DNA from: a virus
Lineage: Duplodnaviria > Caudoviricetes
Length of the DNA stretch: 56,682 nt
Virus record (IMG/VR): IMGVR_UViG_3300032086_002223
Coordinates: 1 to 56,682 of that record
Reading direction: 5' to 3' (one strand)
Positions 18,007 to 37,929 of the stretch are shown one piece after another; positions within the stretch are counted from its first letter, which is position 1, and each line of letters starts with the position of its first letter. The translations under genes and the position numbers were made by a program. Below the pieces are notes generated by a model that was not told the origin of the DNA, made no database searches, and saw only the letters and a program-made list of their open reading frames with translations.

Positions 18007-18882
18007 CTAATCCTTAATTTTTTCTCGAAGAGGTTTCATCTTTAAAGTTTGTTTCACTATTTTCTCTTCTTCCTCTTCATTTATATTCAGTAACTGGAAT
18101 GGGTCGTGAAATTCTCTTTCAAAGAGGGGTGCCTTTGGAGTCCATGGTTTTTCTACTTCTCCACCACCCTTTTTAAATAGGGTTTCATTTCCTTCTTTTA
18201 CATATTTGTGATAGAGAAATGGATTGTGTTCTTTTTGATATTGTTCGGTTTTAATCAAATCGATAGATGCACTCCATGTCTCTCTTCTGTATGGAAGTAT
18301 ATGCACTATTGGTGTCCCAGCAGGAATGACAAACTCCTTTCTTGTCTTGGGATAGAGAATGACTAAACCGTTTAAATCTCCACCTGTATATTTATCAGTG
18401 TCCATTACACCTTGCCAAGCTTGAAAGAATCTATTTTGAAATAGAAATGGGTCTAGGTATAAACATGAATACCCTAATGGTGTTGTTATACTCCATGGAA
18501 TTCTAATTTTAACTGCATTATTATCTTTTAAATCTTCTTCGACATCTGCCTTTGCATATTCAAAGGTGGGGAATTGACTTCTAGGATGACCATCAGTTTC
18601 ATAATTAGGATTGTGGGGACACTTTGCAAATTGTCCTAACTCATATCTAGGTGAACCATCCAAACTATCTTTCGGATATTCTATTTTTATATCTTCAACA
18701 CATACAATGTAATAACCAGTACCCAACACGTCCATCATAGAAGGACACATCTTAATGTTATCTCTTCCGTCTTGCATAACCTTCATCTGTTTCCACCAGT
18801 TTGGGTGTATGTGTTTTGCAACTACGGGACGATATTCTTTAAATGCTTTTTCGTTGGTGGTATTAAATTCTATCGTTGGCAT
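18007..18882 (-). CDS. Conserved phage protein often found with 2OG oxygenases (DUF6065-like)
   Basis: IKMCP...D....GY, PWSITTP.GYSCLY..P, GVMDTD.Y, IPAGTPIVHILPYRRE; family named from recall. Confidence 0.65.
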   Translation of the reverse strand: MPTIEFNTTNEKAFKEYRPVVAKHIHPNWWKQMKVMQDGRDNIKMCPSMMDVLGTGYYIVCVEDIKIEYPKDSLDGSPRYELGQFAKCPHNPNYETDGHPRSQFPTFEYAKADVEEDLKDNNAVKIRIPWSITTPLGYSCLYLDPFLFQNRFFQAWQGVMDTDKYTGGDLNGLVILYPKTRKEFVIPAGTPIVHILPYRRETWSASIDLIKTEQYQKEHNPFLYHKYVKEGNETLFKKGGGEVEKPWTPKAPLFEREFHDPFQLLNINEEEEEKIVKQTLKMKPLREKIKD

Positions 18883-19552
18883 AATAATCTAGTTCATTCT
18901 CTAGTCTACATGCATCACCCCTTATAACTAAGGATTGTCTACATGCATATTCACATTTTTCATTTGGAGCATCTGCATTGTGTGGTATACTCCCATCAAA
19001 CATTAATAGTCTGTTTGGTTTATAATCTACTTGAGCAATTTGATGTTCTAAAAACTCTTCTTTAAAACCATCTATTTTTTTTGCTTCTTCGTTATAAAAT
19101 CTTAGTGGCCCACCCCAATCGTCTTCCCAGTATTCGGTGTTATACCATAAGAAAGATATATTAGTTTTATTATCGGGGGAACTATCTTCATGTATTGTTC
19201 CTTGAAGACCATAGGTCTGTCCATTCATACCTGCGTATTGAAAATTTTCCCACCTAAATCCAAATTCTGTTTGAAGTTTCCAATCTAGATATCTAATTAG
19301 ATAAGTATCTTGCATATGATAGGTGTGGTCTCTAATCTTTTTATCCTTACCCTCATAGAACGTTGCACCCCAAAATAGATGACGTATCTTACCATTTCTA
19401 TTTACTTGATTATTCTGAGCCCATATAGTTCTTGAGGTGAGTCTCCTCATATTATACATGATTTCATAGGTTGCCCAGTTATCTAAGACGTAAATTTTAT
19501 CTAAAGGAAAACTTTGTATCTTAAAGGGTTTATCGAGATATACAACTTCCAT
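18863..19552 (-). CDS. 2OG-Fe(II) oxygenase, prolyl-4-hydroxylase-like
   Basis: NGQT, H-E-D, W..DWGG.L.F, YKPNRLLMFDGSIPH, R.SL. Confidence 0.85.
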   Translation of the reverse strand: MEVVYLDKPFKIQSFPLDKIYVLDNWATYEIMYNMRRLTSRTIWAQNNQVNRNGKIRHLFWGATFYEGKDKKIRDHTYHMQDTYLIRYLDWKLQTEFGFRWENFQYAGMNGQTYGLQGTIHEDSSPDNKTNISFLWYNTEYWEDDWGGPLRFYNEEAKKIDGFKEEFLEHQIAQVDYKPNRLLMFDGSIPHNADAPNEKCEYACRQSLVIRGDACRLENELDYYANDRI

Positions 19553-19555
19553 ACA

Positions 19556-20122
19556 TTACTGCTGACCTTGAAATTGCTGTACTGGAGGTAATTGTAATAG
19601 GTCGTCACAATAATCATCAAAGTCTTTGAGTTGGTCTTCTCTAGTCCTAGTGATTGTACCTACCACTTGTTCTAAGACACTATACGAACTATCTGCAAAT
19701 TCTAATACTCTTCTTGCATCTGACCTGTAAGGATGGTTTGAATCTTCTCTACCGATGTATGTAGCTTCATAAAGATTTTCAATTCTCATCTCGATACATA
19801 GTTGATAGATGTTCTTTGCAACCACTTCATACAAATCATCGATGTATTGGTTGTTTAAATTTGTTCCATCGGGTGCTTCTGCATCATCAATAAACTTCTC
19901 GATATTATCTCTATCTGAGTCTGTTAATGGATGTTTTTCGGATGCATCCCAGTTGGTTGGATTTACTTCTAAGATTTTGAATTCTTCTTGGTCGTATACG
20001 AGTCCTTCGTATTCAAAACCTAATTCGGGTTTGTCTACATTTTGATAAACAATTCTTAACCCAGTTTCTTTGATAATAACTAACGTATTAGTTGCATCAT
20101 ATATTAAAGCTCTATTTGCCAT
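19556..20122 (-). CDS. Hypothetical acidic protein (possible fibre chaperone)
   Basis: 188 aa overlapping the upstream stop; no catalytic motif recognised. Confidence 0.75.
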   Translation of the reverse strand: MANRALIYDATNTLVIIKETGLRIVYQNVDKPELGFEYEGLVYDQEEFKILEVNPTNWDASEKHPLTDSDRDNIEKFIDDAEAPDGTNLNNQYIDDLYEVVAKNIYQLCIEMRIENLYEATYIGREDSNHPYRSDARRVLEFADSSYSVLEQVVGTITRTREDQLKDFDDYCDDLLQLPPVQQFQGQQ

Positions 20123-21566
20123 TTTCTTTCACCTTTTTGTTTTCAATCTCTAAGAGATTTTTATAATAATTATATCTACCAATTTGTTGAACACTATCAT
20201 TAAAGTTTTCAATCCATGGCCCACCGTTTGTGTAATGAATCATTCTATGTTTCTTTACATTGTATGGTTCTTCTGAATAACCTTCAGTCCAACAACAATC
20301 ATCTTGAAGTTTTACCACGTTATCTGTCCATTTAAATTGATGTAGATATTGACCCGATTCTGTGTTTACAACTTCGGGTGTTAGTTTTCTACAATCCTTA
20401 TGACCATTGTTAAATATCATAAGACTTGACCATAGTTTTTTAGGATACCATACATTCTTTTCACCACCTAATTTTTCTGTAATACCTTTATCAGAAAAAT
20501 CATGATGGAAACATGCAACGGAATCAGTATGTCCTAGTGAATAGAATAAGTGTAACATATCTTCTGTGAAGATAAAGTCATCATCCACAAACATACTGAC
20601 ACCTTGATATTTCTCTAAGTATGGTATTAAGAATCTACTGTAAGTAAACTCTGTTGATTGGTTTGCGTAATCTCTAGTATACTCGGGAATCTTAGAAACG
20701 TCAAGTTTTTTAATCTTAACAAATGCATTCCATGGTACACTAGACAAGTCTCCCATTTTGTTGTTGTATCTTTCGATAGAATGTTGTATACTTTTTATAC
20801 AAACATCTGAGACTTCACCGTGTCTACTATCGTATCCTACGTATATAGTTGGAGTCTCTCCATTAAATAATGTATAGTGTAAGTAGTCGTTTGCTTCGGT
20901 ATAGTCACCTCTCATATCTCTGTTTTGATGAGCTTCAATAATACCTTGATTCCAACAATAGGATACATGATTCATATCGGGATAGAGATTATTTTTAAAT
21001 GTGTGAACTATCCACTCAGAGAATGATAGAGGTTTATGGTCATAACATACATCATATGCATCCCATACTAAACATTCAGTTTCCCATCTTTGTAAATATT
21101 TGATTGCAGAATATCTTCCAGTGCCGGGGTGGACAAAGTATCTAATCTCATCTGCATCTGCAGTAGGAGGCCAATACAACACACCTTGTGGCCCGTATTC
21201 AATTCCTTTGTTTCTGATATCTTGAACTAAGAAGTGTAATTTAGTTGCATGGTAGAGACGAGAAGAGTTCTCATCACCATTTATTCTTTCAAAGTCTTCT
21301 GCATCTACAGCTGCATCACCAACTTGTAATGCACGAAAGAAATCTCTAATTTTATGAGAAGAATCTTCTTGATAACTGACACCATACTTCTTGTGTAAGT
21401 CACCCAATGATACTATTTTGGGTTTGTATATACGTGTGATTTCATCAAACTTTTCTTTGATTTTAATCATCACTTCTTTCTTAGGTTTTGTTTTATTCAA
21501 CCCACCAAGATGGTCGTTGAAAGAACTTTTCACACTCACTGGGTCGGGTAAATCAATGTACTTCAT
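20112..21566 (-). CDS. Fusion of a ParB/Srx-like N-domain and a GT-A glycosyltransferase
   Basis: C-half IYVGYDSR, STEFTYSRFLIPYL, FVDDDF (DxD), YPKKLWSS, LHQF.W, IHYT.GGPW; N-half LVQDIRNKGI..P..YFVHPGTGRYSA. Confidence 0.8.
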   Translation of the reverse strand: MKYIDLPDPVSVKSSFNDHLGGLNKTKPKKEVMIKIKEKFDEITRIYKPKIVSLGDLHKKYGVSYQEDSSHKIRDFFRALQVGDAAVDAEDFERINGDENSSRLYHATKLHFLVQDIRNKGIEYGPQGVLYWPPTADADEIRYFVHPGTGRYSAIKYLQRWETECLVWDAYDVCYDHKPLSFSEWIVHTFKNNLYPDMNHVSYCWNQGIIEAHQNRDMRGDYTEANDYLHYTLFNGETPTIYVGYDSRHGEVSDVCIKSIQHSIERYNNKMGDLSSVPWNAFVKIKKLDVSKIPEYTRDYANQSTEFTYSRFLIPYLEKYQGVSMFVDDDFIFTEDMLHLFYSLGHTDSVACFHHDFSDKGITEKLGGEKNVWYPKKLWSSLMIFNNGHKDCRKLTPEVVNTESGQYLHQFKWTDNVVKLQDDCCWTEGYSEEPYNVKKHRMIHYTNGGPWIENFNDSVQQIGRYNYYKNLLEIENKKVKENGK

Positions 21567-21574
21567 AATACTCC

Positions 21575-21603
21575 ATTATAACATCTACTCATGTTTTAGT
21601 CAA
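21575..21603 (-). promoter_or_regulatory. Sigma70-type promoter of the enzyme cassette
   Basis: TTGACT-N17-TATAAT, one mismatch from consensus. Confidence 0.8.
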
Positions 21604-21606
21604 TAA

Positions 21607-21614
21607 TATTTAGT
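21607..21614 (-). promoter_or_regulatory. Variant T4 late promoter (ACTAAATA)
   Basis: TAAATA core just upstream of the sigma70 -35 box. Confidence 0.55.
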
Positions 21615-21622
21615 CCTTTTTT

Positions 21623-24600
21623 TTAAGACGATATTGGAGATGCAGGCCATGTAGTTGTTCCATCCCATTTCTGAACCGTATTTCTATACGGTTGCTGATA
21701 TGCATATGGTTGTATACCTACTGCAACTTTTTGACGTGTTGTCTGTGCTGGTCTCTGTCTTGAAACTCTCTGCAATACCTGTACTCTAGTTGGTCTCTGT
21801 CTTGAAACTCTTTGTAGTACCTGTGTTCTAGCAGGTCTCTGTCTAGTTACATTTTGAAGAACTTGTACTCTAGCAGGTCTTTGTCTAGTTTCAATGTTAT
21901 TGTACTGATACCCCTGTTGTACTGGTCTTCTTCTTGATTCAATGTTATTGTACTGATAACCTTGCTGTACAGGACGTTGTCTACTCTCAGTATTATTGTA
22001 CTGATAACCTTGTTGCACTGGTCTTTGTCTATTTACAATATTGTTATATTGATAACCTTGTTGCACTGGTCTTTGTCTTGTAACAACATTATTATATTGA
22101 TAAGTTTGCTGAGTAGGTCTTCTTCTTGTTTCTTGAATATTTACCTGTACTCTTGCTGGTCTCTGTCTTGAAACTCTTTGCAGTACCTGAACTCTAGCTG
22201 GTCTTCTTCTAGTTTCAACATTGTTGTATTGATAATTCTGTTGAACAGGTCTTTGTCTTGTATCAACATTATTATATTGGTAACCTTGTTGTACAGGTCT
22301 TTGTCTAGACTCAACGTTGTTATATTGATAACTTTGTTGTACAGGTCTTCTTCTAGGTGAAGGTTGGTTTACCTGAACCCTAGCTGGTCTTTGTCTAGAC
22401 TCAACGTTGTTATATTGATAACTTTGTTGTACAGGTCTTCTTCTAGATTCCTGATTGTTATATTGATAACTTTGTTGTACTGGTCTTCTTCTAGACTCTA
22501 CATTATTGTACTGATAAGACTGTTGTACTGGTCTTCTTCTTGTTTCTTGAATATTTACCTGTACTCTTGCTGGTCTTTGTCTAGACACACGTTGCAACTG
22601 TTGTACTCTTGTTGGTCTACGTCTTGATACACGTTGCAGAACTTGAGTTCTTGCTGGTCTCTGTCTTGACACCCTCTGTAATTGTTGTACTCTAACTGGT
22701 CTACGTCTTGGTACCTGATTATGATACTGGTATGCCTGTTGTACAGGTCTTCTTCTTGGTACCTGATTATGATACGTATAAGTTTGTTGAGTAGAAGTTT
22801 GTACCCTATTATGATAAGTGTATGCCTGTTGTACTGGTCTTCTTCTAGGTACCCTATTATGATACTGATACGATTGTTGTACTGGTCTTCTTCTAGGTAC
22901 CCTATTATGATACTGATACGATTGTTGTACAGGTCTACGTCTAGGTACTCTATTATGGTAGGTATAAGCTTGTTGTACAGGTCTTCTTCTTGGTACCCTA
23001 TTATGGTAGGTATAAGCTTGTTGTACAGGTCTACGTCTTGGTACCTGATTATGGTAGGTATAAGTTTGTTGTGAACTTACCTGTACCCTGTTGTGATACT
23101 GATACGATTGTTGTACTGGTCTTCTTCTAGGTTCCTGATTATTATACTGGTAACTTTGTTGTACTGGTCTACGTCTAGGTACCCTATTATGATAGGTGTA
23201 CGGTTGTTGTGTAGGTCTTCTTCTAGGAACTCTATTATGATAAGTGTAAGGTTGTGGTTGTTGAGCAGGTTGTTGCATCTCATTCATCTGACCTTGTGGC
23301 CAGCTGACACCAGCAGTTGCAGCGAATGTTACTTGGTGAACTATTGACCTATCTCTACTTCTTGTAAATACATCACCTTTGTCTCTGACAAATAGTGGGA
23401 ATCCACCACCACCACCACCGCCAGGTGATTGTGACTGCATCTGACCTTGATGCTTCCAAGCAAATGTTGCAGTTTGACCACTCATAATCTTTGCACCAAA
23501 CTGTGAATAATATGGTGCTTGTCCTGCAAAAGGTATTGAGCCTTGTCTTTGTGGGTTAGGAATGTTTTGAACACTTGTCTGTGCAGAGTTAAAATCTGCA
23601 CCAAATTCAAAGTTTACACCCTCAAATCTTAAGGAACCCTGCCACTGTCTCTGTCCAGCAAACGGACTTCTATAATGATAACTATTAACACTTGTTGTTT
23701 GGTTCTGTGGGCCATTACCTACGTAATATGGTGCTTGTGTTCCTGAGAACTGAGCCTGTGGCCCTCTAAACATCATGTTTCCTCTAAAGGAATCTCTTTC
23801 ATGACCTTTACCATCGGGTCTAGCTGGGAAACTGTACTGACTAGCAGTTGAAATACGAGAATCACTCATGGGGAAACCAAAAAACTCGAAAGAAGGTAAT
23901 AATACAGTCCTTTGTCCATAAGGTGTCTCAACCTTAATACCAGCCATGTCACCACCTCCACCGTAAATATTTGCATAGTGGATGTAAGCAGTGTGTGCGT
24001 TGTTTCTTACTGTTACCTGTCTTGTTCTAGTTGTAGGTTGGTTCAACTGATACGATTGTTGTACTGGTCTTCTTCTAGGTTCCTGATTGTTATACTGGTA
24101 AGACTGTTGGACTGGTCTACGTCTTGGTACCCTATTGTGATAGGTGTACGGTTGTTGGACTGGTCTTCTTCTTGGTACCCTCTGTAATTGTTGTACTCTA
24201 ACTGGTCTTCTTCTAGATTCCTGATTGTTATATTGATAACTTTGTTGTACAGGTCTTCTTCTAGGTTCCTGATTGTTATATTGATAACTTTGTTGTACAG
24301 GTCTTCTTCTAGGTTCCTGATTGTTATATTGATAACTTTGTTGTACAGGTCTTCTTCTAGGTTCAGTGTTATTATATTGATAACTTTGTTGTACTGGTCT
24401 TCTTCTAGGGCCAGTGTCATTATATTGATAACTTTGTTGTACTGGTCTTCTTCTAGGTGAAGGTTGGTTTACCTGAACTCTAGTTGGTCTTTGTCTAGAT
24501 TCAGTGTTATTATATTGATAACTTTGTTGTACTGGTCTTTGTCTAGATTCAGTGTTATTATATTGATAACTTTGTTGTGTACTTGCCTGTACCCTGTTGT

Positions 24601-25744
24601 GATACTGATAAGATTGTTGTACACTAGTTTGTACCCTGTTATGATACTGATAAGCTTGTTGAGTAGAAGCTTGAACTCTATTATGATATTGATAAGTCTG
24701 TTGAGTTGATGCTTGTCCTCTGTTATGATAAGTATATCCTTGTTGTACTGGTCTCTGTCTTGTTACCCTATTATGGTACTGATATGCCTGTTGTACTGGT
24801 CTACGTCTTGGTATCCTATGATGGTAGGTATAAGCTTGTTGTACAGGTCTACGTCTAGGTACTCTATTGTGGTACGTATATGTTTGTTGTGTACTTGTTT
24901 GTATCCTATTATGATAAGTGTATGCCTGTTGTACAGGTCTACGTCTTGGTACTCTATGGTGGTACGTATATGTTTGTTGTACTGGACGTTGTCTACCTAC
25001 CCTGTTATGGTACTGATACGATTGTTGTACAGGTCTACGTCTAGGTACTCTATTGTGATAAGTGTACGTTTGTTGAGTAGAAGTTTGTACCCTATTATGG
25101 TACTGATACGTTTGTTGTGTAGAAGCCTGACCCCTATTATGGTAAGTGTACCCCTGTTGTACTACACGTTGTCTATTAACCCTGTTATGATACTGGTATG
25201 ATTGTTGTACTGGTCTCTGTCTTGGTACCCTATTGTGATAGACATAAGTCTGTTGTACTGGTCTCTGTCTTGGTACCCTATTGTGATAGGTGTATCCTTG
25301 TTGTACTGGTCTCTGTCTTGTTACCCTATTATGGTAACTATAAGTTTGTTGGACTGGTCTACGTCTCTGTACCCTGTTATGGTACGTATAGTTTTGTTGA
25401 GTATTCTGTTGAACACGATTGTGATAAGTGTAATCTTGTTGAACACTCGTTTGAACACGATTGTGATACTGATACGTTTGTTGTGTAGATGCTTGTACTC
25501 TGTTATGATATTGATACGACTGTTGCACAGTGAATTGGTAAGGTTGTTGGAAGTTATAAGGTCTTGTTCCAACTGCTGGTCTAGTAGCAATTACTTGGGC
25601 TGGCATCTGTCCTGATGCCTTTATCCATCCAGTAGGTGTCTTTGTATAGACAGAATCAACTGCCGACCATTCTGTTGGGGATGTCTTTACCCAACTACCT
25701 GTTGTATTTACCCACCCCGTAGGGTTCTTAATTCGTTGTGCCAT
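21623..25744 (-). CDS. Giant mirror-repeat protein (1373 aa), putative hairpin stalk adhesin
   Basis: Two arms of 14/16-aa R/Q/Y/H repeats flanking a non-repetitive domain of about 259 aa; N-terminal W-x-K-T..W motifs; follows a fibre gene. Confidence 0.9.
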   Translation of the reverse strand: MAQRIKNPTGWVNTTGSWVKTSPTEWSAVDSVYTKTPTGWIKASGQMPAQVIATRPAVGTRPYNFQQPYQFTVQQSYQYHNRVQASTQQTYQYHNRVQTSVQQDYTYHNRVQQNTQQNYTYHNRVQRRRPVQQTYSYHNRVTRQRPVQQGYTYHNRVPRQRPVQQTYVYHNRVPRQRPVQQSYQYHNRVNRQRVVQQGYTYHNRGQASTQQTYQYHNRVQTSTQQTYTYHNRVPRRRPVQQSYQYHNRVGRQRPVQQTYTYHHRVPRRRPVQQAYTYHNRIQTSTQQTYTYHNRVPRRRPVQQAYTYHHRIPRRRPVQQAYQYHNRVTRQRPVQQGYTYHNRGQASTQQTYQYHNRVQASTQQAYQYHNRVQTSVQQSYQYHNRVQASTQQSYQYNNTESRQRPVQQSYQYNNTESRQRPTRVQVNQPSPRRRPVQQSYQYNDTGPRRRPVQQSYQYNNTEPRRRPVQQSYQYNNQEPRRRPVQQSYQYNNQEPRRRPVQQSYQYNNQESRRRPVRVQQLQRVPRRRPVQQPYTYHNRVPRRRPVQQSYQYNNQEPRRRPVQQSYQLNQPTTRTRQVTVRNNAHTAYIHYANIYGGGGDMAGIKVETPYGQRTVLLPSFEFFGFPMSDSRISTASQYSFPARPDGKGHERDSFRGNMMFRGPQAQFSGTQAPYYVGNGPQNQTTSVNSYHYRSPFAGQRQWQGSLRFEGVNFEFGADFNSAQTSVQNIPNPQRQGSIPFAGQAPYYSQFGAKIMSGQTATFAWKHQGQMQSQSPGGGGGGGFPLFVRDKGDVFTRSRDRSIVHQVTFAATAGVSWPQGQMNEMQQPAQQPQPYTYHNRVPRRRPTQQPYTYHNRVPRRRPVQQSYQYNNQEPRRRPVQQSYQYHNRVQVSSQQTYTYHNQVPRRRPVQQAYTYHNRVPRRRPVQQAYTYHNRVPRRRPVQQSYQYHNRVPRRRPVQQSYQYHNRVPRRRPVQQAYTYHNRVQTSTQQTYTYHNQVPRRRPVQQAYQYHNQVPRRRPVRVQQLQRVSRQRPARTQVLQRVSRRRPTRVQQLQRVSRQRPARVQVNIQETRRRPVQQSYQYNNVESRRRPVQQSYQYNNQESRRRPVQQSYQYNNVESRQRPARVQVNQPSPRRRPVQQSYQYNNVESRQRPVQQGYQYNNVDTRQRPVQQNYQYNNVETRRRPARVQVLQRVSRQRPARVQVNIQETRRRPTQQTYQYNNVVTRQRPVQQGYQYNNIVNRQRPVQQGYQYNNTESRQRPVQQGYQYNNIESRRRPVQQGYQYNNIETRQRPARVQVLQNVTRQRPARTQVLQRVSRQRPTRVQVLQRVSRQRPAQTTRQKVAVGIQPYAYQQPYRNTVQKWDGTTTWPASPISS
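21746..23254 (-). repeat. C-terminal repeat arm (42/48-nt coding units)
   Basis: 32 full units (20 long, 10 RxRP-only, 2 YxY-only) plus partial end units. Confidence 0.95.
24032..25525 (-). repeat. N-terminal repeat arm (42/48-nt coding units)
   Basis: 32 full units (20 long, 10 YxY-only, 2 RxRP-only) plus a partial first unit. Confidence 0.95.
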
Positions 25745-25757
25745 ATTATATTAACTC

Positions 25758-28061
25758 TTAAGAGTAAGTTATCCATACATCTCCAACTTGCCCAGCACCT
25801 GATGTGGGGGCAGAAGAATGTATGAAAGTGTTTCGAAATGCTCCGTCTGAAGCACCAATGGTTGTAAAACCTGTAGTACCTTTACCAGTAACTGATAATG
25901 CATCCCCGATAGTTACATCATCGGGTAGACCTATTGTTACTGTTGCATTTTCACTACCTGAACCTGAGACTGTAATCTCATTTGCAGTTCCTGATATTCC
26001 TGATACGTAATTTCCTGTTGTGTCTGTTGCTAATGCAACTGAGTTTGCTTGTATAGTTGTGCTTATGGATATACCTGCTGAACCGTCAAAGTTTGCAGTA
26101 CCAACAACATCTCCTGAAAGTGCTATTGCTCTTGTCGTTGCTAATTTAGTAGCTGTAGATGCGTTACCTGTTACATCACCAGTGACATCACCATAAAGTC
26201 TTCCTGCTTGTATGTTTGCATTAGTGAGTGTTAATGCACCAGTAGATGCACCTGTTGCCGTTGTGGTTGCAAATCTAACTCTATCTGAACTTTCATCCCA
26301 ACCTACGAAAACATTATCACCAGTAGAACCTCTTTCAAGAATAAGACCTAAGTCATTAGAGTTTGCACCCGTGTTACCTGAACCAAGTTCAATCAATGCA
26401 TCTTCGATTGTTGTATTTGTTGCACTGTTTGTTACTGTAGAACCATTGACTGTTAGGTCACCAGTGACTACTACGTCACCACTTGCATTTACGTTTGCGA
26501 ATGTTACATTACTGTTTGTTGCAACTGCCTGACCGATACTAAATGCACCACCTGAATATGATACACCAGTTCCAGCACTTAGATGAGCTCTAACTTCTGA
26601 TGCACTTGGGCCTGTATATGTGATAACACCAGTAGATGAATTGTATGCAAGTGAACCATCTCCACCTGAATCTGTTACTGATATAGCTCCTCTTGCATCT
26701 GAATCTGCATACATTGTAGGTTCTGAGTATGAGATTACACCTGATGTTGAGTTATATGCTAAATCACCACTTACTGAAATTGAACTTCTTGCATTTGCAG
26801 TTGTGAATTTAGTTACACTAAATGCACCTGTTGATGAGTTATAAGATAGGTCACCAGCTGCAGATAATAAACCTCTTACTTCTGCGTCTGTTCTTTCTGT
26901 AAATGAGAATGCACCAGTTGAACTATTATATGATAAATCACCACTTGCAGATACTAATCCTCTGATACTTGCATCTGATAAACCAGCAAGTGTAAGTGTT
27001 CCAGCTGCATCGTCATATGTTGATGTGATGTTTGTTCCACCAATTATCAATCCATTTACGATGTCTTCTATTTCTTCTTCAGTTTTTCCTGAAGAGTTGA
27101 TTGTAAGTGTTCCGTTTGCATCGTCATATGATGTTGTTATGTTAGTACCAGCAGTGACTAATGCATTTACTCTGTCGTCTACTCTTTCGTTTGTGAAAAA
27201 TAGATTTCCATTTTCTGATAAATCACCTGTGTCTAAAGTAACTGAACCACCAAGGGATACGGTGTTTGAGTTAATTGATAATGAACTGTTAGAAAGTTTT
27301 CCGTTAACAATAGAACCTGCTAACATATCATTTGTGATACCACCAGCTTTTACTTGAACTGTATCTGATGCAAGTTCTAAAGAACTGTCATCTACTTGAA
27401 CTGCAAGTGTTACTGCACCTGAAGTTCCACCACCAGTCAAACCATCTCCTGCTGTTACAGCTGTGATGTCTGCAGAGTTTGTGTTTGCAACTGTAAGTGT
27501 ATTAGCTACATCATCATATGTTAATGATACACCAGTTCCTGCTGTAAGTAATCCATTTACTCTATCGTCTACTCTTTCGTTTGTAAAATAAAGGTTTGTT
27601 GACCCTTCTGTAATCTCGTCTGTATTATCTTTACCCGCTACTTGAGAATCTACATATGCTTTAATCGATTGTTGTGTTGCAGCGTGAGTTGCAGAGTTTG
27701 AAGCCATGTTGTCTTCATCTTTGAAATCGATTGCGATGTCGTCTGCATTTACAGTGATACCTGTACCAGCACCAACATTAAGTGTTGCATCACCTGAAGT
27801 TGCAGTACCTGTTAAACCAGCACCAGCGTTAACTCCAGTGATATCACCGACATTACCTGTAATTGTTAGTTGGTTAGCTGCATCATCATATGATAATGAG
27901 ATACCTGAACCTGCTTGTAAAAGACTTGCAACTCTATCGTCCACACTTTCATTAAGTGCAGTTGCAGAAATGGAACCTACATATGTTCCGTCTGATTGGA
28001 TGACCTCTGTTCCACTAACTGATAGTCCATTCTTGACATTAAAATTCTTTTCACCTGCCAT
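25758..28061 (-). CDS. Tail fibre protein (767 aa)
   Basis: G/S/T-rich; repeats AG.GI...YDD..NTLTI, EGSTNLYFTNERV, SYNSSTG; ends AP..GDVW. Confidence 0.85.
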   Translation of the reverse strand: MAGEKNFNVKNGLSVSGTEVIQSDGTYVGSISATALNESVDDRVASLLQAGSGISLSYDDAANQLTITGNVGDITGVNAGAGLTGTATSGDATLNVGAGTGITVNADDIAIDFKDEDNMASNSATHAATQQSIKAYVDSQVAGKDNTDEITEGSTNLYFTNERVDDRVNGLLTAGTGVSLTYDDVANTLTVANTNSADITAVTAGDGLTGGGTSGAVTLAVQVDDSSLELASDTVQVKAGGITNDMLAGSIVNGKLSNSSLSINSNTVSLGGSVTLDTGDLSENGNLFFTNERVDDRVNALVTAGTNITTSYDDANGTLTINSSGKTEEEIEDIVNGLIIGGTNITSTYDDAAGTLTLAGLSDASIRGLVSASGDLSYNSSTGAFSFTERTDAEVRGLLSAAGDLSYNSSTGAFSVTKFTTANARSSISVSGDLAYNSTSGVISYSEPTMYADSDARGAISVTDSGGDGSLAYNSSTGVITYTGPSASEVRAHLSAGTGVSYSGGAFSIGQAVATNSNVTFANVNASGDVVVTGDLTVNGSTVTNSATNTTIEDALIELGSGNTGANSNDLGLILERGSTGDNVFVGWDESSDRVRFATTTATGASTGALTLTNANIQAGRLYGDVTGDVTGNASTATKLATTRAIALSGDVVGTANFDGSAGISISTTIQANSVALATDTTGNYVSGISGTANEITVSGSGSENATVTIGLPDDVTIGDALSVTGKGTTGFTTIGASDGAFRNTFIHSSAPTSGAGQVGDVWITYS

Positions 28062-32941: not shown

Positions 32942-35179
32942 TTAAGTGTTCGGGTCTGTCAATTGTGAAGTTGGTACACTTTGGTGAGTCTTTTTCAATG
33001 TACCACTGTCATTTATATAGACTTCATCCATTTTTCTTAATGTACCAGCATCGTTAATCCATATCTGTTTGATTTTTGCAAGAGGCCCGATTGTTCTTGT
33101 TGATGGGAACGGTTGTCGTACTGGTCTACGTCTTGGTATCTGATTATGATAGTTATAAGTCTGTTGCACAGGTCTACGTCTAGGTACCCTATTGTGATAC
33201 GAATAAGTTTGTTGTAAATTTTTCTGTCTTGATACTCTATTGTGATATGTGTAATCTTGTTGCACACTTCTTTGTCTATCTACTCTATTGTGGTATTGAT
33301 ACGACTGTTGCACACTACGTTGTCTTGATGACCTTTGTAATACCTGAACCCTAGCTGGTTTTTGTCTAGTTTCTTGTGCATTTATTGGTACTCTAACAGG
33401 TCTTCTCTTTGACTCACTATTGTTATACTGGTATGTTTGTTGTACTGGTCTTTGTTTAGTTATAACCTGATTCACCTGAACTCTTGTTGGTCTTTGTCTT
33501 GTTACGGCTTCATTTACTTGAACTCTAGCAGGTCTTTGTCTTGACACACGTTGTAATACCTGAACCCTAGCTGGTTTTTGTCTTGATACTACTTCATTAA
33601 CCTGTACTCTTACTGGTCTTCTTCTATCTTCATCTACGTTTCTCTGAGTTCTTACAGGTCTACGTCTTGGTACCTGATTATGATACGAATAAGTTTGTTG
33701 AGTAGTCACCTGTTTTTCATTTAGAGTTCCACTTGGGAATGCCGGTGTTGGTGTTGATGATGCAGCCAAAGTAACACCTGAGACAAATGTCTCTTGTCTT
33801 GCATATCCTCTAGGTCTTATCCTTACAAAATAACCATCATTATCTCTCAATCGAAGAGGCACCTGGCCACCTGGCGTTGGTGCCGCTTGAACCTGTGATG
33901 TAAAGTCTCCTACATTTTCCCATGCAAGTTTAATTTGTTGACCACTATTAAGTTTAATAGCATACTGAGAAGCATTTGGATGTTGTGAAAGAAACTCAAC
34001 TCCCTGAGTACCTTGTCCTTGAGGGTGTCCTTGTCTTTGTGGATTAGGTACACTTTGGTTTTGAGGTGCTGGTGAAGCTGGACTAAAGTCAGCTGCAAAG
34101 ATTGTATTTTCTCCAACATACCTTAATCTAGAATTCCATTGTCTTTGTACTTGACCGCTGGGGAATTGAACACCTGAGTAATTCCAAGTATTAGCAACAG
34201 CAGGTGCTACAGTATTTTGCATCCCAGTTCCAGTATAGTAAGGAGCTGCTGTTTGTGTGAATGAAGCAGTTGGCCCCCTGAAGAACATTGCACCCCTGAA
34301 CGAATCACCTTCATGAAAATTTCCTGACCTTGTACCTGTTGGTGTAGGAAAAGGATATTGTTGAGGTATACCATTTATTTGTTGTTGCATTGGAAAACCC
34401 ATAAACTCGAAAGAAGGTATGGTGCCTGTTACTTGACCATATGGTGTCTCCATCTTAATAGCCGCAGCATCACCCCCACCACCATATACACGCATATAAT
34501 GAATGTAATTTGAGTGTGCTTGTGACTGAACGGGTCTCTGTCTATTCTCAGTATTGTTATACTGGTACGACTGTTGAGTATTCTCTTGTGTTCTATTATG
34601 ATACACATACACCTGTTGAGTATTCTGTTGAACACGATTGTGATAAGTGTAATCTTGTTGAGTAGATGTCTGTACTCTGTTATGATACTGGTATGTTTGT
34701 TGAGTATTCTGTTGAACACGATTATGATAAGTGTAATCTTGTTGAACACTCGTTGGAACACGATTGTGATACTGATAATCTTGTTGTACAGGTCTCTGTC
34801 TAGCTACTCTATTATGATAAGTGTATGTTTGTTGAGTATTTTGTTGTACTCTATTATGGTAAGTATATGGTTGTTGAGTATTTTGTTGTACCCTGTTATG
34901 ATACTGATATGATTGTCTAGCAGGTCTCTGTCTTGTTACAACATTATTGTACTGATAGGTTTGTCTAGTAGGTCTCTGTCTTGTTACAGCATTATTGTAC
35001 TGATAGGTTTGTCTAGTAGGTCTCTGTCTAGATTCTACGTTGTTATACTGATAACTTTGTTGAACAGGTCTTTGTTTGTTTTCTTGATTGTTGTACTGAT
35101 ATGACTGTTGAACAGGTCTTCTATCATTGAAGGGTTGTTGAAAACTAGTCCCTGTATTGATATATGTTTCATTTGACAT
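32942..35179 (-). CDS. Second mirror-repeat protein (745 aa), paralogue of 21623-25744
   Basis: Same repeat alphabet in two arms; homologous central domain; C-terminal IWIND.G...VYIND.G motif. Confidence 0.9.
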   Translation of the reverse strand: MSNETYINTGTSFQQPFNDRRPVQQSYQYNNQENKQRPVQQSYQYNNVESRQRPTRQTYQYNNAVTRQRPTRQTYQYNNVVTRQRPARQSYQYHNRVQQNTQQPYTYHNRVQQNTQQTYTYHNRVARQRPVQQDYQYHNRVPTSVQQDYTYHNRVQQNTQQTYQYHNRVQTSTQQDYTYHNRVQQNTQQVYVYHNRTQENTQQSYQYNNTENRQRPVQSQAHSNYIHYMRVYGGGGDAAAIKMETPYGQVTGTIPSFEFMGFPMQQQINGIPQQYPFPTPTGTRSGNFHEGDSFRGAMFFRGPTASFTQTAAPYYTGTGMQNTVAPAVANTWNYSGVQFPSGQVQRQWNSRLRYVGENTIFAADFSPASPAPQNQSVPNPQRQGHPQGQGTQGVEFLSQHPNASQYAIKLNSGQQIKLAWENVGDFTSQVQAAPTPGGQVPLRLRDNDGYFVRIRPRGYARQETFVSGVTLAASSTPTPAFPSGTLNEKQVTTQQTYSYHNQVPRRRPVRTQRNVDEDRRRPVRVQVNEVVSRQKPARVQVLQRVSRQRPARVQVNEAVTRQRPTRVQVNQVITKQRPVQQTYQYNNSESKRRPVRVPINAQETRQKPARVQVLQRSSRQRSVQQSYQYHNRVDRQRSVQQDYTYHNRVSRQKNLQQTYSYHNRVPRRRPVQQTYNYHNQIPRRRPVRQPFPSTRTIGPLAKIKQIWINDAGTLRKMDEVYINDSGTLKKTHQSVPTSQLTDPNT
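33107..33712 (-). repeat. C-terminal repeat arm of the 745-aa protein
   Basis: 5 RxRP-only, 1 long, 2 RxRP-only, 4 long units plus end units. Confidence 0.9.
34529..35128 (-). repeat. N-terminal repeat arm of the 745-aa protein
   Basis: 5 long, 2 YxY-only, 1 long, 5 YxY-only units plus a partial unit. Confidence 0.9.
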
Positions 35180-35202: not shown

Positions 35203-37929
35203 TTATACCACATACCACAAATGTCCATTGTTTGTACCTGAAACACTTGAGGGAGCTGTTGAAACTACTTCATAATCTGATTCGACAAAGTCTGAATCTA
35301 TCTTAACACCTTTCCTTGTATTTATAGAGAGAACACCACTACTATGTGTAAGACCATTACCTGCTACTGAAGACTTAAGTCTTATCTCACCACCATCACC
35401 AGCTGCATGGAACTCTAATCCACCACTTACATTTAAGTCTGCAGAAATTTTACCTGTTGATGAATTGTAGTCAATACCTGGCCCACCTGACAAAGCTCCT
35501 CTTGCATTTGTATCACTATATTGTGCAGCTGCAGAGAAAGAAAGTGTATTTGCAGTATCATCGTAAGTTACAGTGATATTACTGTGAGTTCCACTAGTAA
35601 TCATTCCAGCTGCAGCGTCTTGAGCTCTTTCAGTTGTAAAGTACTGTGTACCACTTGTACCAGTTGCAGAGGGGTCTTCTGTCAAGTTACTTGTATTAGC
35701 TGCTGCTATTCTAGCATCTGCTCTTGCATTTGTAAAGTAAAGGTTTGTCCCTTCTGATAAATTTGTTGTTGAGAAACCACTCAATGATACAGATGCATTT
35801 AACTTATCATTATCATCATCGTGAGTAAATGAGATACCACTATGTGTCCCACCAGTAATTAGTGTTGCAGTCGTATCTCTAATATATTCGGGGTCGACTG
35901 CAAATTCTAATGTACCTTCATTGTTGTTATCATCATTATATGTTGTAGATATACCTGTATGTGAACCATTTGAATTTACTATTAAATTTGCAACAGCATC
36001 TCTTGCTCTTTCAGGAGTGAAGTATAAGTTTGTTGAACCTTCTGCAAAACTGTCGGTGTTTTCTCCAAGCGTATGAGGTGCAAAACGATTATTAACCCCA
36101 TCCCATGTGAGTGCTTGTCCAGCTGCAATACCTGAGATAGTTACATCTGACAAATCACCAATACTTGCAGCTCCTATTCTTGCATCAGCTCTTGCATTTG
36201 TAAAATATAAGTTAGACCCCTCAGTAATATCACCTGAGTCTCCACTCATCTCACTGAGTTCGTCTTGTAAATCTAATTGTCCATCAACATATGTTTTGAC
36301 TGCTAACTGTGAAGGAATTAAAGTGTCTGATGCACTTGCAAAAGTATTGTCTGTATCAATAGCTGCTTGTACTCTTGCATCTGCTCTTGCATTTGTATAA
36401 TATAAGTTTGCAGGGTTTTCATCGATGTGAGAAGTATTTAATTCTATGTTTGCACTTCCATCAAAAGATACACCTGATATATTTCTTGCAGTTTCTAATA
36501 CTGTTGCACTTGCAGCGTTACCACTTGTGTCTTGATTACCTGTTTGGTTAACGCCAGGCAAATTGATATTTGCACTTCCGTTGAAGGATACACCACCTAT
36601 TGTTCTTGCAGTCTCTAAAGTTGTTGCTGTACTTGCATTACCAACTAGATTACCTGTTGTAGTATCAATATATGCGTTTGCAAATCTAACACCATTTGAA
36701 CCTAAGTCTCTTGCACTATCTCCATCGGGAATAATATCACTATCAAGGACACCAGTAAATGTAACTGTGTCTGCACTTGTATTACCTAAGTTTACGTTAC
36801 CATCAAGATTGGTTTGTCCATCTACTGTTAGAGTTGAATTAAAATCTACGTTTCCATGTACTTCTAGTGTAGTTGAAATGTCAACACTTCCATCTTGGTT
36901 CAACGTACCTACGTTGTGTATACCATCGGTTGTTGTAGAACCATCAACATCTAGATTACCCTTAATGTAAGTGTTACCTGTTGCAGATGCAACTGTAAAC
37001 TTATCAGTATTGACATCAAAGTCACCACCAATGTGTCCTGTTCCTGATGCATCTAAATTACCGTTTAGGTCTAGATTACCATCTATTGTTGTTCCGTCTA
37101 ATGTAGTTGCACCATCTACGTTTAGGGTTCCATCGATGTCTGCATTACCGTTTGCATTGATGTTACCAGCAGATGTAATAGATACACCTGTTGAACCGAA
37201 TCCACCACCGACATCTAGATTACCTACGTTGAAATCACCACTGAAGTCTCCTGTGACACCCCCTGTGATGTTTCCTGAACTAATTGATAGTGTGTTGTCT
37301 GTAAGTGTAGGTGCAGATAGTGTATGACCTGTATCGAGGTCTACATCACCATTGATGAATGTTTTACCTTCTATCTGAACTACGTAACCTGATTGTAATG
37401 TTGTGACAATTGAAGCAATGTCACCGTTAATAATAACACCACTATCGTTGTTATTATAAATTGTGTTCTCTAGTGTTTCAGTCCAAAATGTTTGTACTGC
37501 AGTTTGTCCTGCTACATCAAGGAATGAACCTGTAAATGCAACCACTCTGATAACATCACCAGCTGTTGCACCTGATGTAAGTGTAACCCTAGTGTGATTA
37601 CCGTTTGCATTTACATTTGATATTGTGAAATCTGTTGAGAGTTGTTGTAAGTCACCGTTTTTAAATACGAGGAATCTGTGGTCTCTAAACTCTAATATGT
37701 TTTGGTCGGGTGAACTGTCTGCACCATCGAATACTGTTTGACCACTAGTTGCAGTATAAATGAATCCTTGAAAAAAGAATTCTCTATCTCTCAAATCATT
37801 TACTGCATCAACAAGAGTAGTTTTATCCTGAGTACGTAAGCCACCAATATCCCCAACATCTGATGCTAGTTCGTTATATGACTGTCTCCACTCTTCTAGT
37901 GTAGTATGTTGACTAACTGTTTTGGCCAT
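35203..37929 (-). CDS. Long fibre protein (908 aa)
   Basis: N-terminal T.EEWR...NEL coiled anchor, G.L.VDG repeats, L.TAR.I.GVSF.GSANI twice, several NLYFT.ARA repeats; ends AP..G.LW. Confidence 0.85.
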   Translation of the reverse strand: MAKTVSQHTTLEEWRQSYNELASDVGDIGGLRTQDKTTLVDAVNDLRDREFFFQGFIYTATSGQTVFDGADSSPDQNILEFRDHRFLVFKNGDLQQLSTDFTISNVNANGNHTRVTLTSGATAGDVIRVVAFTGSFLDVAGQTAVQTFWTETLENTIYNNNDSGVIINGDIASIVTTLQSGYVVQIEGKTFINGDVDLDTGHTLSAPTLTDNTLSISSGNITGGVTGDFSGDFNVGNLDVGGGFGSTGVSITSAGNINANGNADIDGTLNVDGATTLDGTTIDGNLDLNGNLDASGTGHIGGDFDVNTDKFTVASATGNTYIKGNLDVDGSTTTDGIHNVGTLNQDGSVDISTTLEVHGNVDFNSTLTVDGQTNLDGNVNLGNTSADTVTFTGVLDSDIIPDGDSARDLGSNGVRFANAYIDTTTGNLVGNASTATTLETARTIGGVSFNGSANINLPGVNQTGNQDTSGNAASATVLETARNISGVSFDGSANIELNTSHIDENPANLYYTNARADARVQAAIDTDNTFASASDTLIPSQLAVKTYVDGQLDLQDELSEMSGDSGDITEGSNLYFTNARADARIGAASIGDLSDVTISGIAAGQALTWDGVNNRFAPHTLGENTDSFAEGSTNLYFTPERARDAVANLIVNSNGSHTGISTTYNDDNNNEGTLEFAVDPEYIRDTTATLITGGTHSGISFTHDDDNDKLNASVSLSGFSTTNLSEGTNLYFTNARADARIAAANTSNLTEDPSATGTSGTQYFTTERAQDAAAGMITSGTHSNITVTYDDTANTLSFSAAAQYSDTNARGALSGGPGIDYNSSTGKISADLNVSGGLEFHAAGDGGEIRLKSSVAGNGLTHSSGVLSINTRKGVKIDSDFVESDYEVVSTAPSSVSGTNNGHLWYVV

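What the first reader, a model, noticed from the sequence alone, without database searches (positions are those of the whole stretch)
21746..25525. Second code layer: exactly one His-bearing partner at every paired junction
Seen: each unit ends in a 4-aa tail that is either His-type (HNRV, HNQV, HHRI) or non-His (NNxE, NQPS, LQRV, NIQE). Pairing tails in mirror order gives 33 pairs, all with one His-type and one non-His tail. His sits on the N-arm for pairs 1-21, on the C-arm for 22-30, flips back at 31 (HNRV opposite NNQE) and returns to the C-arm for 32-33. The 745-aa paralogue obeys the same rule in 13 of 13 pairs. HNRV often faces NNxE (possible R-E salt bridge). Inference: a periodic His site every 14-16 residues; in a trimer three His could form metal sites, by analogy with the His-ligated iron in the T4 gp37 needle.
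Basis: partly seen in the sequence, partly recalled or inferred. Interest (0 to 1): 0.85.

Follow-up and report, generated by a model that had tools for sequence, protein, structure and literature searches.

The report
Fold-back phage fibre with pairing code
A giant tail-fibre-like protein of a marine phage appears to fold back on itself so that 33 repeats of its first half each pair with a complementary repeat of its second half, a self-checking pairing code in which histidine marks one partner; a metal-binding role for that histidine remains unproven.

Summary
A script recount gives 33 of 33 mirror-order pairs with exactly one His-type unit in the 1373-aa protein (21623-25744, minus strand). 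The 745-aa paralogue gives 13 of 13.

- **Compensated change:** two orthologues (L011, L012) carry a different inner pattern and still score 33 of 33. Six pairs changed in both partners and none in one only.
- **Distant homologue:** a 35%-identical protein (P0010) obeys the rule with another arrangement.
- **Length code:** a 2-residue length code agrees in 64 of 64 and 24 of 24 comparisons.
- **Distant relatives:** some are split into two genes. They show the same mirror matching with other repeat classes and almost no His.

Best reading: a fold-back, antiparallel fibre in which every rung pairs two complementary unit classes, which fixes partner and register. His is this lineage's mark of one class.

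The T4 gp37 analogy holds for topology only:

- there is no HxH motif;
- an Arg-rich face flanks the His (inference);
- His-free relatives exist.

These argue against gp37-type metal sites, though single-His triads are not excluded. Structure prediction gave nothing usable.

The parts
21623..25744 (-). Gene for the 1373-aa repeat protein (P0001). It is very basic: pI 11.5, with 209 Arg, 254 Gln, 124 Tyr and no Cys.
   Evidence: no Pfam family above its cut-off, no PHROG and no NCBIfam
25526..25744 (-). N-terminal 73 residues that precede the repeat arms
24032..25525 (-). N-arm, residues 74-571: 33 units with tails H21 n9 H1 n2
23258..24031 (-). Central non-repeat domain, residues 572-829. It is predicted to be all-beta, and I propose it as the distal tip.
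   Evidence: The window's own 745-aa paralogue P0002 (query residues 202-509) matches this part at 50% identity. AlphaFold2 gave mean pLDDT 53 and pTM 0.55. No convincing fold match.
21764..23257 (-). C-arm, residues 830-1327: 33 units with tails H2 n1 H9 n21, the exact mirror complement of the N-arm
21623..21763 (-). C-terminal 46 residues after the arms, plus the stop codon
32942..35179 (-). Gene for the 745-aa paralogue (P0002). N-arm residues 24-211 (34547-35110), central domain 212-493 (33701-34546), C-arm 494-681 (33137-33700), conserved C-terminal module 682-745.
   Evidence: phrog_13729 matches residues 702-734 only

Best explanation
Both proteins are fold-back fibre proteins of the tail-fibre module of a marine T4-like myophage.

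**Proposed architecture**
- The N-arm runs out to a beta-rich central domain, which is the likely distal, receptor-binding tip.
- The C-arm runs back antiparallel to the N-arm in exact register. In the 1373-aa protein, residue x lies level with residue 1401-x.
- Both chain ends therefore lie at the proximal end.

**The rungs**
- Every rung is heterotypic. It pairs one unit of the class that here carries His (QQxYxYHNRV-like) with one unit of the other class (QQSYQYNNxE-like, or the short RVQVLQRV-like core).
- A short 8-aa core is always matched by a 4-aa linker after its partner, so both arms keep equal contour length.

**What the two layers do**
- Together they act as a partner-and-register code. 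Like units cannot pair, slipped registers mismatch, and any change in one arm must be compensated in the other.
- His is the lineage-specific mark of one class. It most likely acts as a packing or hydrogen-bonding residue in an asymmetric contact. It is probably not a gp37-type iron ligand.

**Shown versus inferred**
- Shown: the complementarity, its statistics, the compensated changes and the same principle in distant and split relatives.
- Inferred: physical contact between the arms, trimeric state, tip function and the chemical role of His.
For: **1. Perfect mirror complementarity**
- 33 of 33 (P0001), 13 of 13 (P0002), 13 of 13 (L009), 33 of 33 (L011) and 33 of 33 (L012).

**2. Compensated change**
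- P0001 against L011 or L012: the His/non-His type changed in both partners at 6 pairs (N-arm units 24, 25, 27, 28, 29, 31), in one partner only at 0, and was unchanged at 27.
- Length elements changed on both sides at 2 places and on one side only at 0.
- P0002 against L009: 1 length change on both sides and 0 on one side.
- This happened although the flanking genes are 92-98% identical.

**3. Length code**
- A short core corresponds to a short linker after its partner in 64 of 64 comparisons (P0001, L011, L012 each) and 24 of 24 (P0002, L009).
- Short cores never carry His (0 of 12 in P0001).
- Short linkers never follow a non-His unit (0 of 12 in P0001).

**4. Distant homologue**
- P0010 is 35% identical and has a different arrangement. 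With a single position sum of 765, 13 of 13 windows have one His-bearing tail.

**5. Relatives with other repeat chemistry, split into two adjacent ORFs**
- The first ORF carries the N-arm and a globular domain. The second carries the C-arm and the conserved C-terminal module.
- Unit boundaries of the two ORFs coincide under one position sum:

| Locus | Coinciding boundaries | Next-best sum |
|---|---|---|
| L022 | 15 | 10 |
| L023 | 14 | 9 |
| L027 | 17 | 10 |
| L028 | 15 | 10 |
| L020 | 16 | 7 |

- The two unit classes in those loci (PYPYIANA-like and PFTY-like) are complementary in 12 of 14, 11 of 13, 12 of 16 and 12 of 14 segments. In L027 and L028 this includes reciprocal flips.

**6. Single-chain distant members**
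- Significant mirror boundaries appear in L018 (13; shuffles reach it 0 of 2000), P0037 (0 of 2000), L024 and P0028 (2 and 1 of 2000) and L031 (17 of 2000).

**7. Context**
- Both genes lie among fibre and baseplate genes.
- The family gene always follows the homologue of the 908-aa fibre protein and precedes the homologue of the 533-aa protein.
- The central domain is the most variable part apart from the remodelled inner arms: 74-83% identity, against 90-92% for the outer arms.

**8. Independent assemblies**
- L009 equals L036, L011 equals L034 and L012 equals L035, letter for letter.
Against: - **No structure supports the model.** AlphaFold2 of the whole paralogue gave mean pLDDT 27.8.
- **Oligomeric state and arm contact are inferred from sequence only.**
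- **Four homologues have unequal arm counts:** P0004 has 11 N-arm units against 13 C-arm units, P0005 12 against 13, P0007 13 against 11, and P0006 13 against 7 parsed.
  - They fit only with whole-unit gaps: 11, 12 and 11 complementary pairs, 0 same-type pairs and 2, 1 and 2 unpaired units in an alignment fitted to the code.
  - P0006 was not scored.
  - Whether these are collapsed repeat assemblies or real overhangs is unknown.
- **One irregular rung in P0010.** The His-type C-arm core 653-662 is out of phase and faces N-arm 103-112, which contains the His of N-arm unit 97-106.
- **Limits of the P0010 test.** I chose the unit list and fitted the sum from the outer five pairs.
- **The A/F class rules are crude patterns of my own.**
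  - L022 and L023 each contain one same-class segment, with His on both sides.
  - L020 was mostly unclassified (11 of 15 segments).
- **Five family members show no significant mirror signal.** These are the four short members L014, L019, L026 and L030, and P0020.
- **The order of repeats in the window has no independent confirmation.** The laid contigs break into short pieces inside the arms.
- **A net charge near +180 per chain is unusual for a fibre** and is not explained by the model.
Confidence: 0.65

Rival explanations
1. Metal-site reading. The fibre is a trimer. At every rung the three symmetry-related His point to the axis and bind a metal ion, giving 33 sites in the long protein and 13 in the short one. 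'Exactly one His partner' then means that one arm supplies the ligands and the other makes room, as in the T4 gp37 needle.
For: - Strict periodicity, with exactly one His-bearing arm per rung.
- All arm His sit at one core position.
- In gp37, seven HxH motifs are shared between the outgoing strand (3) and the returning strand (4), for seven irons. Each site there therefore uses one pass only (PMC6957217 and PMC12609058, passages read).
- Three-His sites on a threefold axis exist elsewhere in proteins (recalled, not checked here).
Against: - 0 HxH in either protein. The phage axial iron sites described in the passages I read use two His per chain.
- Arg follows the His at +2 in 101 of 125 His-type cores. 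In a beta strand this is the same face, and charged residues pointing at a metal-filled core are unlikely. This is inference.
- The partner residue level with the His under the deduced register is Tyr or Val, not Gly or another small residue as beside gp37 His929. This is also inference.
- The residue at the same core position in the partner unit varies: Asn in 80 of 80 long non-His cores, and Leu (27) or Asn (18) in the 45 short cores.
- Distant relatives keep the mirror matching with His in neither partner in 13 of 14, 12 of 13, 16 of 16, 14 of 14 and 12 of 15 segments.
Confidence: 0.2
2. Intermolecular antiparallel pairing without fold-back. The N-arm of one chain pairs with the C-arm of another chain lying head to tail, giving a long symmetric rod with the central domains in the middle.
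For: The mirror relation (x level with 1401-x) maps the central domain onto itself. Sequence complementarity alone therefore cannot tell intramolecular from intermolecular pairing.
Against: - In the split relatives, the N-arm plus globular domain is one polypeptide and the C-arm plus C-terminal module is another. This gives a one-armed rod with the globular domain at one end, as in a hairpin.
- A tail fibre needs two different ends (inference).
- Known fold-back tips such as gp37 are intramolecular (PMC12609058, passages).
Confidence: 0.1
3. Chance, an assembly artefact of a repetitive gene, or a by-product of DNA-level repeat structure, with no structural meaning.
For: - The gene is highly repetitive.
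- The window is a metagenome-derived contig.
- Logan contigs do not span the arms.
- Some homologues have unequal arms.
Against: - Label shuffles reach the observed count in 0 of 100,000 trials for each of the three long proteins.
- Five coinciding boundaries in L011 and L012 are about 1 in 402,752 under random placement.
- There are six two-sided changes and no one-sided change between close relatives.
- There are no DNA inverted repeats.
- Identical sequences were recovered from separate collections.
- A misassembly would break the code, not create it (inference).
Confidence: 0.03

Closest known systems
Receptor-binding tip (collar-needle-head) of T4 gp37 and the similar tips of phage Bas63 fibres
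   Same: - It is a tail-fibre protein whose chain runs out to a distal head domain and doubles back, so outgoing and returning strands lie side by side (PMC12609058, passages).
- His recurs along the needle, and each metal site takes its His from only one of the two passes.
   Different: - There is no sequence similarity: no Protein Data Bank hit at E up to 1.
- There is no HxH motif.
- Here the fold-back would involve about 500 residues per arm in 33 regular rungs, against about 60-70 residues and seven sites in gp37.
- The arms carry basic xRxRPx linkers, and two complementary unit classes are absent from gp37.
- No trimer, barrel or metal has been shown here.
Iron-loaded spikes and stems of phages: HxH at the apex of a triple beta-helix in P2, phi92 and T4, and the His42-x7-His50 site of phage phi11 RBP
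   Same: His residues of three chains meet on a threefold axis and bind a structural metal (PMC4901313, passages).
   Different: Those sites use six His, two per chain, and occur singly or a few times. Here there is one His per chain per rung, repeated 13 or 33 times, and metal binding is untested.
   Same: They are viral fibres built from repeats of about 15-16 residues that contain a Pro or Gly turn.
   Different: Those chains run parallel in one direction. They offer no reason for mirror-order complementarity between the two halves of a chain, and no two-class pairing is known to me.

Membership tests
T4 gp37-type receptor-binding tip (needle) | The chain doubles back at a distal head domain, so N-side and C-side segments run antiparallel | tested here: met
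   Met at sequence level only. Mirror complementarity is 33 of 33 and 13 of 13, with compensated changes and a constant position sum. No structure is available.
T4 gp37-type receptor-binding tip (needle) | Di-histidine HxH motifs along the needle | tested here: not met
   0 HxH in P0001 and P0002. T4 gp37 has seven in residues 883-998.
T4 gp37-type receptor-binding tip (needle) | Detectable sequence similarity to solved tips | tested here: not met
   phmmer of P0002 against all Protein Data Bank chains gave 0 hits at E up to 1. There is no Pfam family above its cut-off and no NCBIfam family; the only PHROG match is the C-terminal module of P0002 (phrog_13729, residues 702-734).
T4 gp37-type receptor-binding tip (needle) | Trimer forming a six-stranded barrel with axial iron | not testable with these tools
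   This needs a structure and metal analysis. The monomer fold had mean pLDDT 27.8.
Fold of the central (tip) domain: any solved fold | Structural match of the predicted central domain | tested here: inconclusive
   The model has pLDDT 53. Foldseek against PDB gave a best E of 5.4e-3 with TM 0.26 or less. BFVD gave a best E of 3.1e-2. VIA-align gave a best Z of 4.6.
Marine T4-like myophage structural module | Neighbouring portal, sheath, terminase, baseplate wedge and fibre genes | tested here: met
   phrog_213 portal 4.8e-207, phrog_23 sheath 2e-123, phrog_219 baseplate wedge 8.7e-157, and tail-fibre PHROGs for the 908-aa neighbour. The portal is 57.5% identical to that of Methylophilales phage Melnitz.

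The most novel reading that the evidence does not exclude
Every rung holds a metal ion bound by three symmetry-related His on the axis of a trimer. The 1373-aa protein would then be a rod roughly 100 nm long carrying 33 evenly spaced metal sites. That would be a far longer linear metal array than the seven irons of the gp37 needle, built by an ocean phage where iron and zinc are scarce. The two-class code would decide which arm supplies the ligands at each level.
Probability: 0.15. Interest if true: 0.85.

Novelty: new variant of a known kind. Interest (0 to 1): 0.68.

Why it matters
- **A residue-level model for an unannotated family.** It gives a concrete, testable structural model for a fibre family of marine T4-like myophages. 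These are relatives of phages of OM43 and SAR11 by portal similarity. The window's stretch occurs in 20 runs of 7 studies.
- **A natural design principle.** Two complementary repeat classes plus a length code fix the partner and register of a very long beta fibre. This is of interest for fibre folding and for protein design.
- **Annotation of split genes.** It explains why some relatives carry the fibre as two adjacent genes, and predicts that their products pair.
- **A checksum for assemblies.** The code serves as an internal check on repeat assemblies. Homologues with unequal arms (P0004, P0005, P0006, P0007) are flagged either as collapsed assemblies or as real overhangs.
- **The tip as a host-range module.** The variable central domain at the predicted tip is a candidate host-range determinant.

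Tried and rejected
**Structure prediction**
- AlphaFold2 of the whole 745-aa paralogue with a 7-row alignment gave mean pLDDT 27.8, which is unusable.
- Complex prediction was run with three copies of P0002 82-159, three copies of 546-623 and four zinc ions. The verdict was 'no answer', score 0.00, and the controls were not run. I draw nothing from it either way.
- AlphaFold2 of the central domain with 13 rows gave pLDDT 53. Searches with that model found no convincing match:
  - Foldseek against PDB;
  - BFVD;
  - VIA-align wide, best Z 4.6.
- The ESM Atlas holds the P0002 sequence but no model and gave no usable hit.

**Sequence searches**
- The cultured-phage collection gave no tblastn match for P0002, for the L024 family member or for the 60-aa C-terminal module. 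The low-complexity filter was on.
- megablast of window 19000-22000 also gave none.
- The 1.84-billion-protein representative search gave 48 hits at E up to 0.001. Many of these match only the conserved C-terminal end, residues about 616-745. Of the six hits I fetched, P0014 and P0042 were unrelated repeat proteins.
- A search with P0001 540-880 found only P0010.
- The metagenome scan returned only sequences that I already had.

**Reads**
- The laid Logan contigs cover every bin and report no indels, but they are broken into short pieces inside the arms.
- They therefore neither confirm nor refute the order of units. The joints listed there lie in repeats.

**Ideas rejected**
- A DNA palindrome as the cause: 0 inverted repeats.
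- An R-E salt bridge as the basis of the rule: it occurs in 16 of 33 pairs, and the deduced register does not put the tails opposite each other.
- Residue-level covariation analysis across pairs: I did not run it, because block structure and repeat duplication would confound it.

**Literature**
- Searches for the strings YHNRV, PYIANA and PRRRPV found one unrelated paper.
- Searches found no description of this family.
- I read passages only of PMC6957217, PMC12609058 and PMC4901313.
- Supplements were closed and not consulted. They could hold gp37 details that I did not see.

**Neighbour**
- The 484-aa neighbour has no Protein Data Bank, Pfam or NCBIfam match.

Full report
**What is there**

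The window is a 56.7-kb viral contig, about 31% complete. It comes from a marine T4-like myophage.
- Portal, sheath, terminase and baseplate-wedge genes match PHROGs strongly.
- The portal is 57.5% identical to that of Methylophilales phage Melnitz and 55.4% to that of Pelagibacter phage Mosig.
- The finding lies in a 1373-aa gene on the minus strand, 21623-25744 (P0001), among fibre-like genes.
- A 745-aa paralogue (P0002, 32942-35179) lies 7 kb upstream, directly after a 908-aa protein with tail-fibre PHROG hits.
- Neither protein has a Pfam family above its cut-off or an NCBIfam family. The only PHROG match is to the C-terminal module of P0002.
- P0002, the one I searched, has no relative among solved structures.

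**Anatomy**

Each protein has an N-arm of repeats, a central non-repeat domain of about 260-280 aa, and a C-arm of repeats. The two central domains are 50% identical. A tiling parser splits the arms into units:
- a core of 10 aa (QQxYxY plus a 4-aa tail) or of 8 aa (RVQV plus a tail);
- followed by a linker of 6 aa (xRxRPx) or 4 aa (QAST-like).

P0001 has 33 units in each arm and P0002 has 13 in each.

**Recount of the observation**
- P0001 tails are H21 n9 H1 n2 in the N-arm and H2 n1 H9 n21 in the C-arm.
- Read in mirror order, 33 of 33 pairs hold exactly one His-type tail. P0002 gives 13 of 13.
- Controls for P0001:
  - parallel order gives 11 of 33;
  - a one-unit shift gives 29 of 32;
  - label shuffles reach the observed value in 0 of 100,000 trials (80 of 100,000 for P0002).
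- All arm His are at core position 7 (33) or 8 (2).
- No DNA inverted repeat underlies the pattern.

**A companion length code**
- Every 8-aa core is always non-His. It faces a His unit that is followed by a 4-aa linker, and the reverse also holds.
- Agreement is 64 of 64 comparisons in each long protein and 24 of 24 in each short one.
- As a result, the start of an N-arm core plus the end of its partner's core is constant: 1401 in P0001 and 705 in P0002 (from the coordinates).
- The two arms therefore keep the same contour distance from the centre, residue by residue.

**Homologues**

The family is rare. I found 7 relatives of P0002 among 5.8 billion proteins and 48 hits at E up to 0.001 among 1.84 billion representatives. 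Many of these cover only the conserved C-terminal end.

Results that support the rule:
- IMG/VR gave orthologues. L009 (746 aa) scores 13 of 13. L011 (1379 aa) and L012 (1382 aa) each score 33 of 33.
- L011 and L012 have a different inner pattern: N H21 n2 H2 n1 H3 n4 and C H4 n3 H1 n2 H2 n21.
- Against P0001, six pairs changed type in both partners and none in one partner only. Two length elements changed on both sides and none on one side.
- The neighbouring genes are nevertheless 92-98% identical.
- The remodelled inner arms are 66-69% identical and the outer arms 90-92%.
- The 35%-identical P0010 has yet another arrangement, with five short non-His units at its N-end facing five His units with short linkers at its C-end. 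It gives 13 of 13 windows with one His-bearing tail under a single sum of 765.
- L009, L011 and L012 were recovered letter for letter from a second collection.

Results against the rule, or limiting it:
- P0010 has one out-of-phase His core (653-662) that overlaps a His-bearing N-arm segment.
- P0004, P0005 and P0007 have unequal arm counts. They fit only with whole-unit gaps: 11, 12 and 11 complementary pairs, 0 same-type pairs and 2, 1 and 2 unpaired units, in an alignment fitted to the code.
- P0006 has 13 N-arm units against 7 parsed C-arm units and was not scored.
- The fragment P0009 has a C-arm that complements the N-arm of the related P0007 exactly. This hints that P0007's own C-arm is collapsed, but it does not prove it.
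- The fragments P0008, P0009 and P0011 were left out of the pair counts.

**The wider family generalises the principle and removes the His**

More distant members share the N-terminal and C-terminal modules but carry other repeats.
- In L022 and L023, in L027 and L028, and in L020, the gene is split.
  - The first ORF holds the N-module, the N-arm and a globular domain.
  - The second ORF holds the C-arm and the C-module.
  - In L022 the second ORF starts at the stop of the first. In L027 an 83-aa ORF lies between them.
- Under one position sum, 15, 14, 17, 15 and 16 unit boundaries of the two ORFs coincide. The next-best sums reach 10, 9, 10, 10 and 7.
- PYPYIANA-like units face PFTY-like units in 12 of 14, 11 of 13, 12 of 16 and 12 of 14 segments. 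This uses my own crude class rules; L020 was mostly unclassified. L027 and L028 show reciprocal flips.
- His is absent from both partners in 13 of 14, 12 of 13, 16 of 16, 14 of 14 and 12 of 15 segments. L022 and L023 each have one segment with His on both sides.
- Single-chain distant members with a middle domain also show significant mirror boundaries:
  - L018 and P0037: shuffles reach the value in 0 of 2000 trials;
  - L024 and P0028: 2 and 1 of 2000;
  - L031: 17 of 2000.
- L029 (153 of 2000) and P0024 (79 of 2000) are marginal.
- The short members L014, L019, L026 and L030, and P0020, show none.

**Interpretation**

The simplest account is a fold-back fibre. Both termini sit at the proximal end, the arms are antiparallel, and the variable central domain forms the distal tip.
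- Each rung pairs two complementary unit classes.
- The class pattern and the length code together fix partner and register, and they force compensated evolution.
- The split forms favour a hairpin over a head-to-tail arrangement of whole chains.
- The topology is that of the T4 gp37 tip, where the chain doubles back at the head (PMC12609058, passages).
- Arm length is inference only. If extended, 500 residues per arm could span on the order of 100 nm or more.

**The metal idea**

In its favour:
- one arm supplies the His at each level;
- gp37 works that way, with HxH at 883, 915 and 929 outgoing and at 966, 980, 989 and 998 returning, for seven irons.

Against it:
- there is no HxH;
- the known phage axial iron sites that I read about use two His per chain;
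- Arg sits at +2 in 101 of 125 His-type cores;
- under the deduced register the residue level with the His is Tyr or Val, not a small residue (inference);
- the fold-back principle works without His in relatives.

I put single-His triad metal sites at about 0.2. The R-E salt-bridge suggestion is weak: it occurs in 16 of 33 pairs, and the tails of a pair lie at opposite ends of the paired cores.

**Structure prediction failed**
- The whole paralogue gave pLDDT 27.8.
- The central domain gave pLDDT 53. It is all-beta and has no convincing match.

**Occurrence**
- The stretch 21000-26500 is held at 0.89 or more of its sampled words by 20 runs of 7 studies. The records label them seawater, marine or biofilm metagenomes.
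- The laid contigs cover all bins but break up inside the arms.

**Verdict**
- It is best read as one lineage's version of a general two-class pairing code in a new family of fold-back phage fibres.
- The metal interpretation is possible but currently disfavoured.
- I found no description of the family in print.

Noticed in passing
L022:6001-7937, L023:6001-7940, L027:6001-8014, L028:6001-8011, L020:6001-7879: In these relatives the fibre gene is split into two adjacent ORFs: N-arm plus globular domain, then C-arm plus conserved C-terminal module. In L022 the second ORF starts at the stop codon of the first. In L027 an 83-aa ORF lies between them. The globular domains differ from the window's central domain.
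   Followed up: partly
window 18863-19552 (-) and 20112-21566 (-): Directly downstream of the 1373-aa gene lie a 484-aa protein with a DDD/DxD-like motif (phrog_28018 only) and a 229-aa 2OG-Fe(II) oxygenase (PF13640, 30.8 bits against a cut-off of 27). Both are 92-98% identical in L011 and L012. They might modify the Pro-, Arg- and Asn-rich arms; this is untested.
   Followed up: partly
window 21623-25744 (-): The protein is extremely basic: pI 11.5, with 209 Arg and 11 Lys against 38 acidic residues, and no Cys. This is unusual for a fibre. It suggests binding to a polyanionic surface, or Arg-Tyr stacking between linkers and cores. It remains unexplained.
   Followed up: no
window 22682-23074 (+), 24713-25201 (+), 25202-25615 (+): Long open frames on the opposite strand inside the gene translate to monotonous Leu/Ile/Ser/Tyr repeats. 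They are by-products of the repeat and are unlikely to be genes.
   Followed up: no
P0022 (594 aa): An unrelated protein carries about 20 tandem units of about 14 aa that alternate between YH and YN versions of an FSY(H/N)xR motif. By eye I saw no mirror complementarity around its PPP turn.
   Followed up: partly
L014, L019, L026, L030 (259-372 aa family members): These short members lack the conserved N-terminal module and a middle domain, and they show no significant mirror boundary signal. They may be C-arm-only partners of an upstream ORF.
   Followed up: no
window 25758-28061 (-) and 35203-37929 (-): The 767-aa and 908-aa neighbours share recurring NLYFTN(E/A)R-like motifs and hit phrog_697 and tail-fibre PHROGs. 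Across the wider family, the pairing-code gene always follows the homologue of the 908-aa protein and precedes the homologue of the 533-aa protein.
   Followed up: partly
window 21000-26500: The stretch is held nearly whole (0.89-0.94 of sampled words) by 20 public runs from 7 studies dated 2018-2025. This phage or close kin is therefore widespread.
   Followed up: partly
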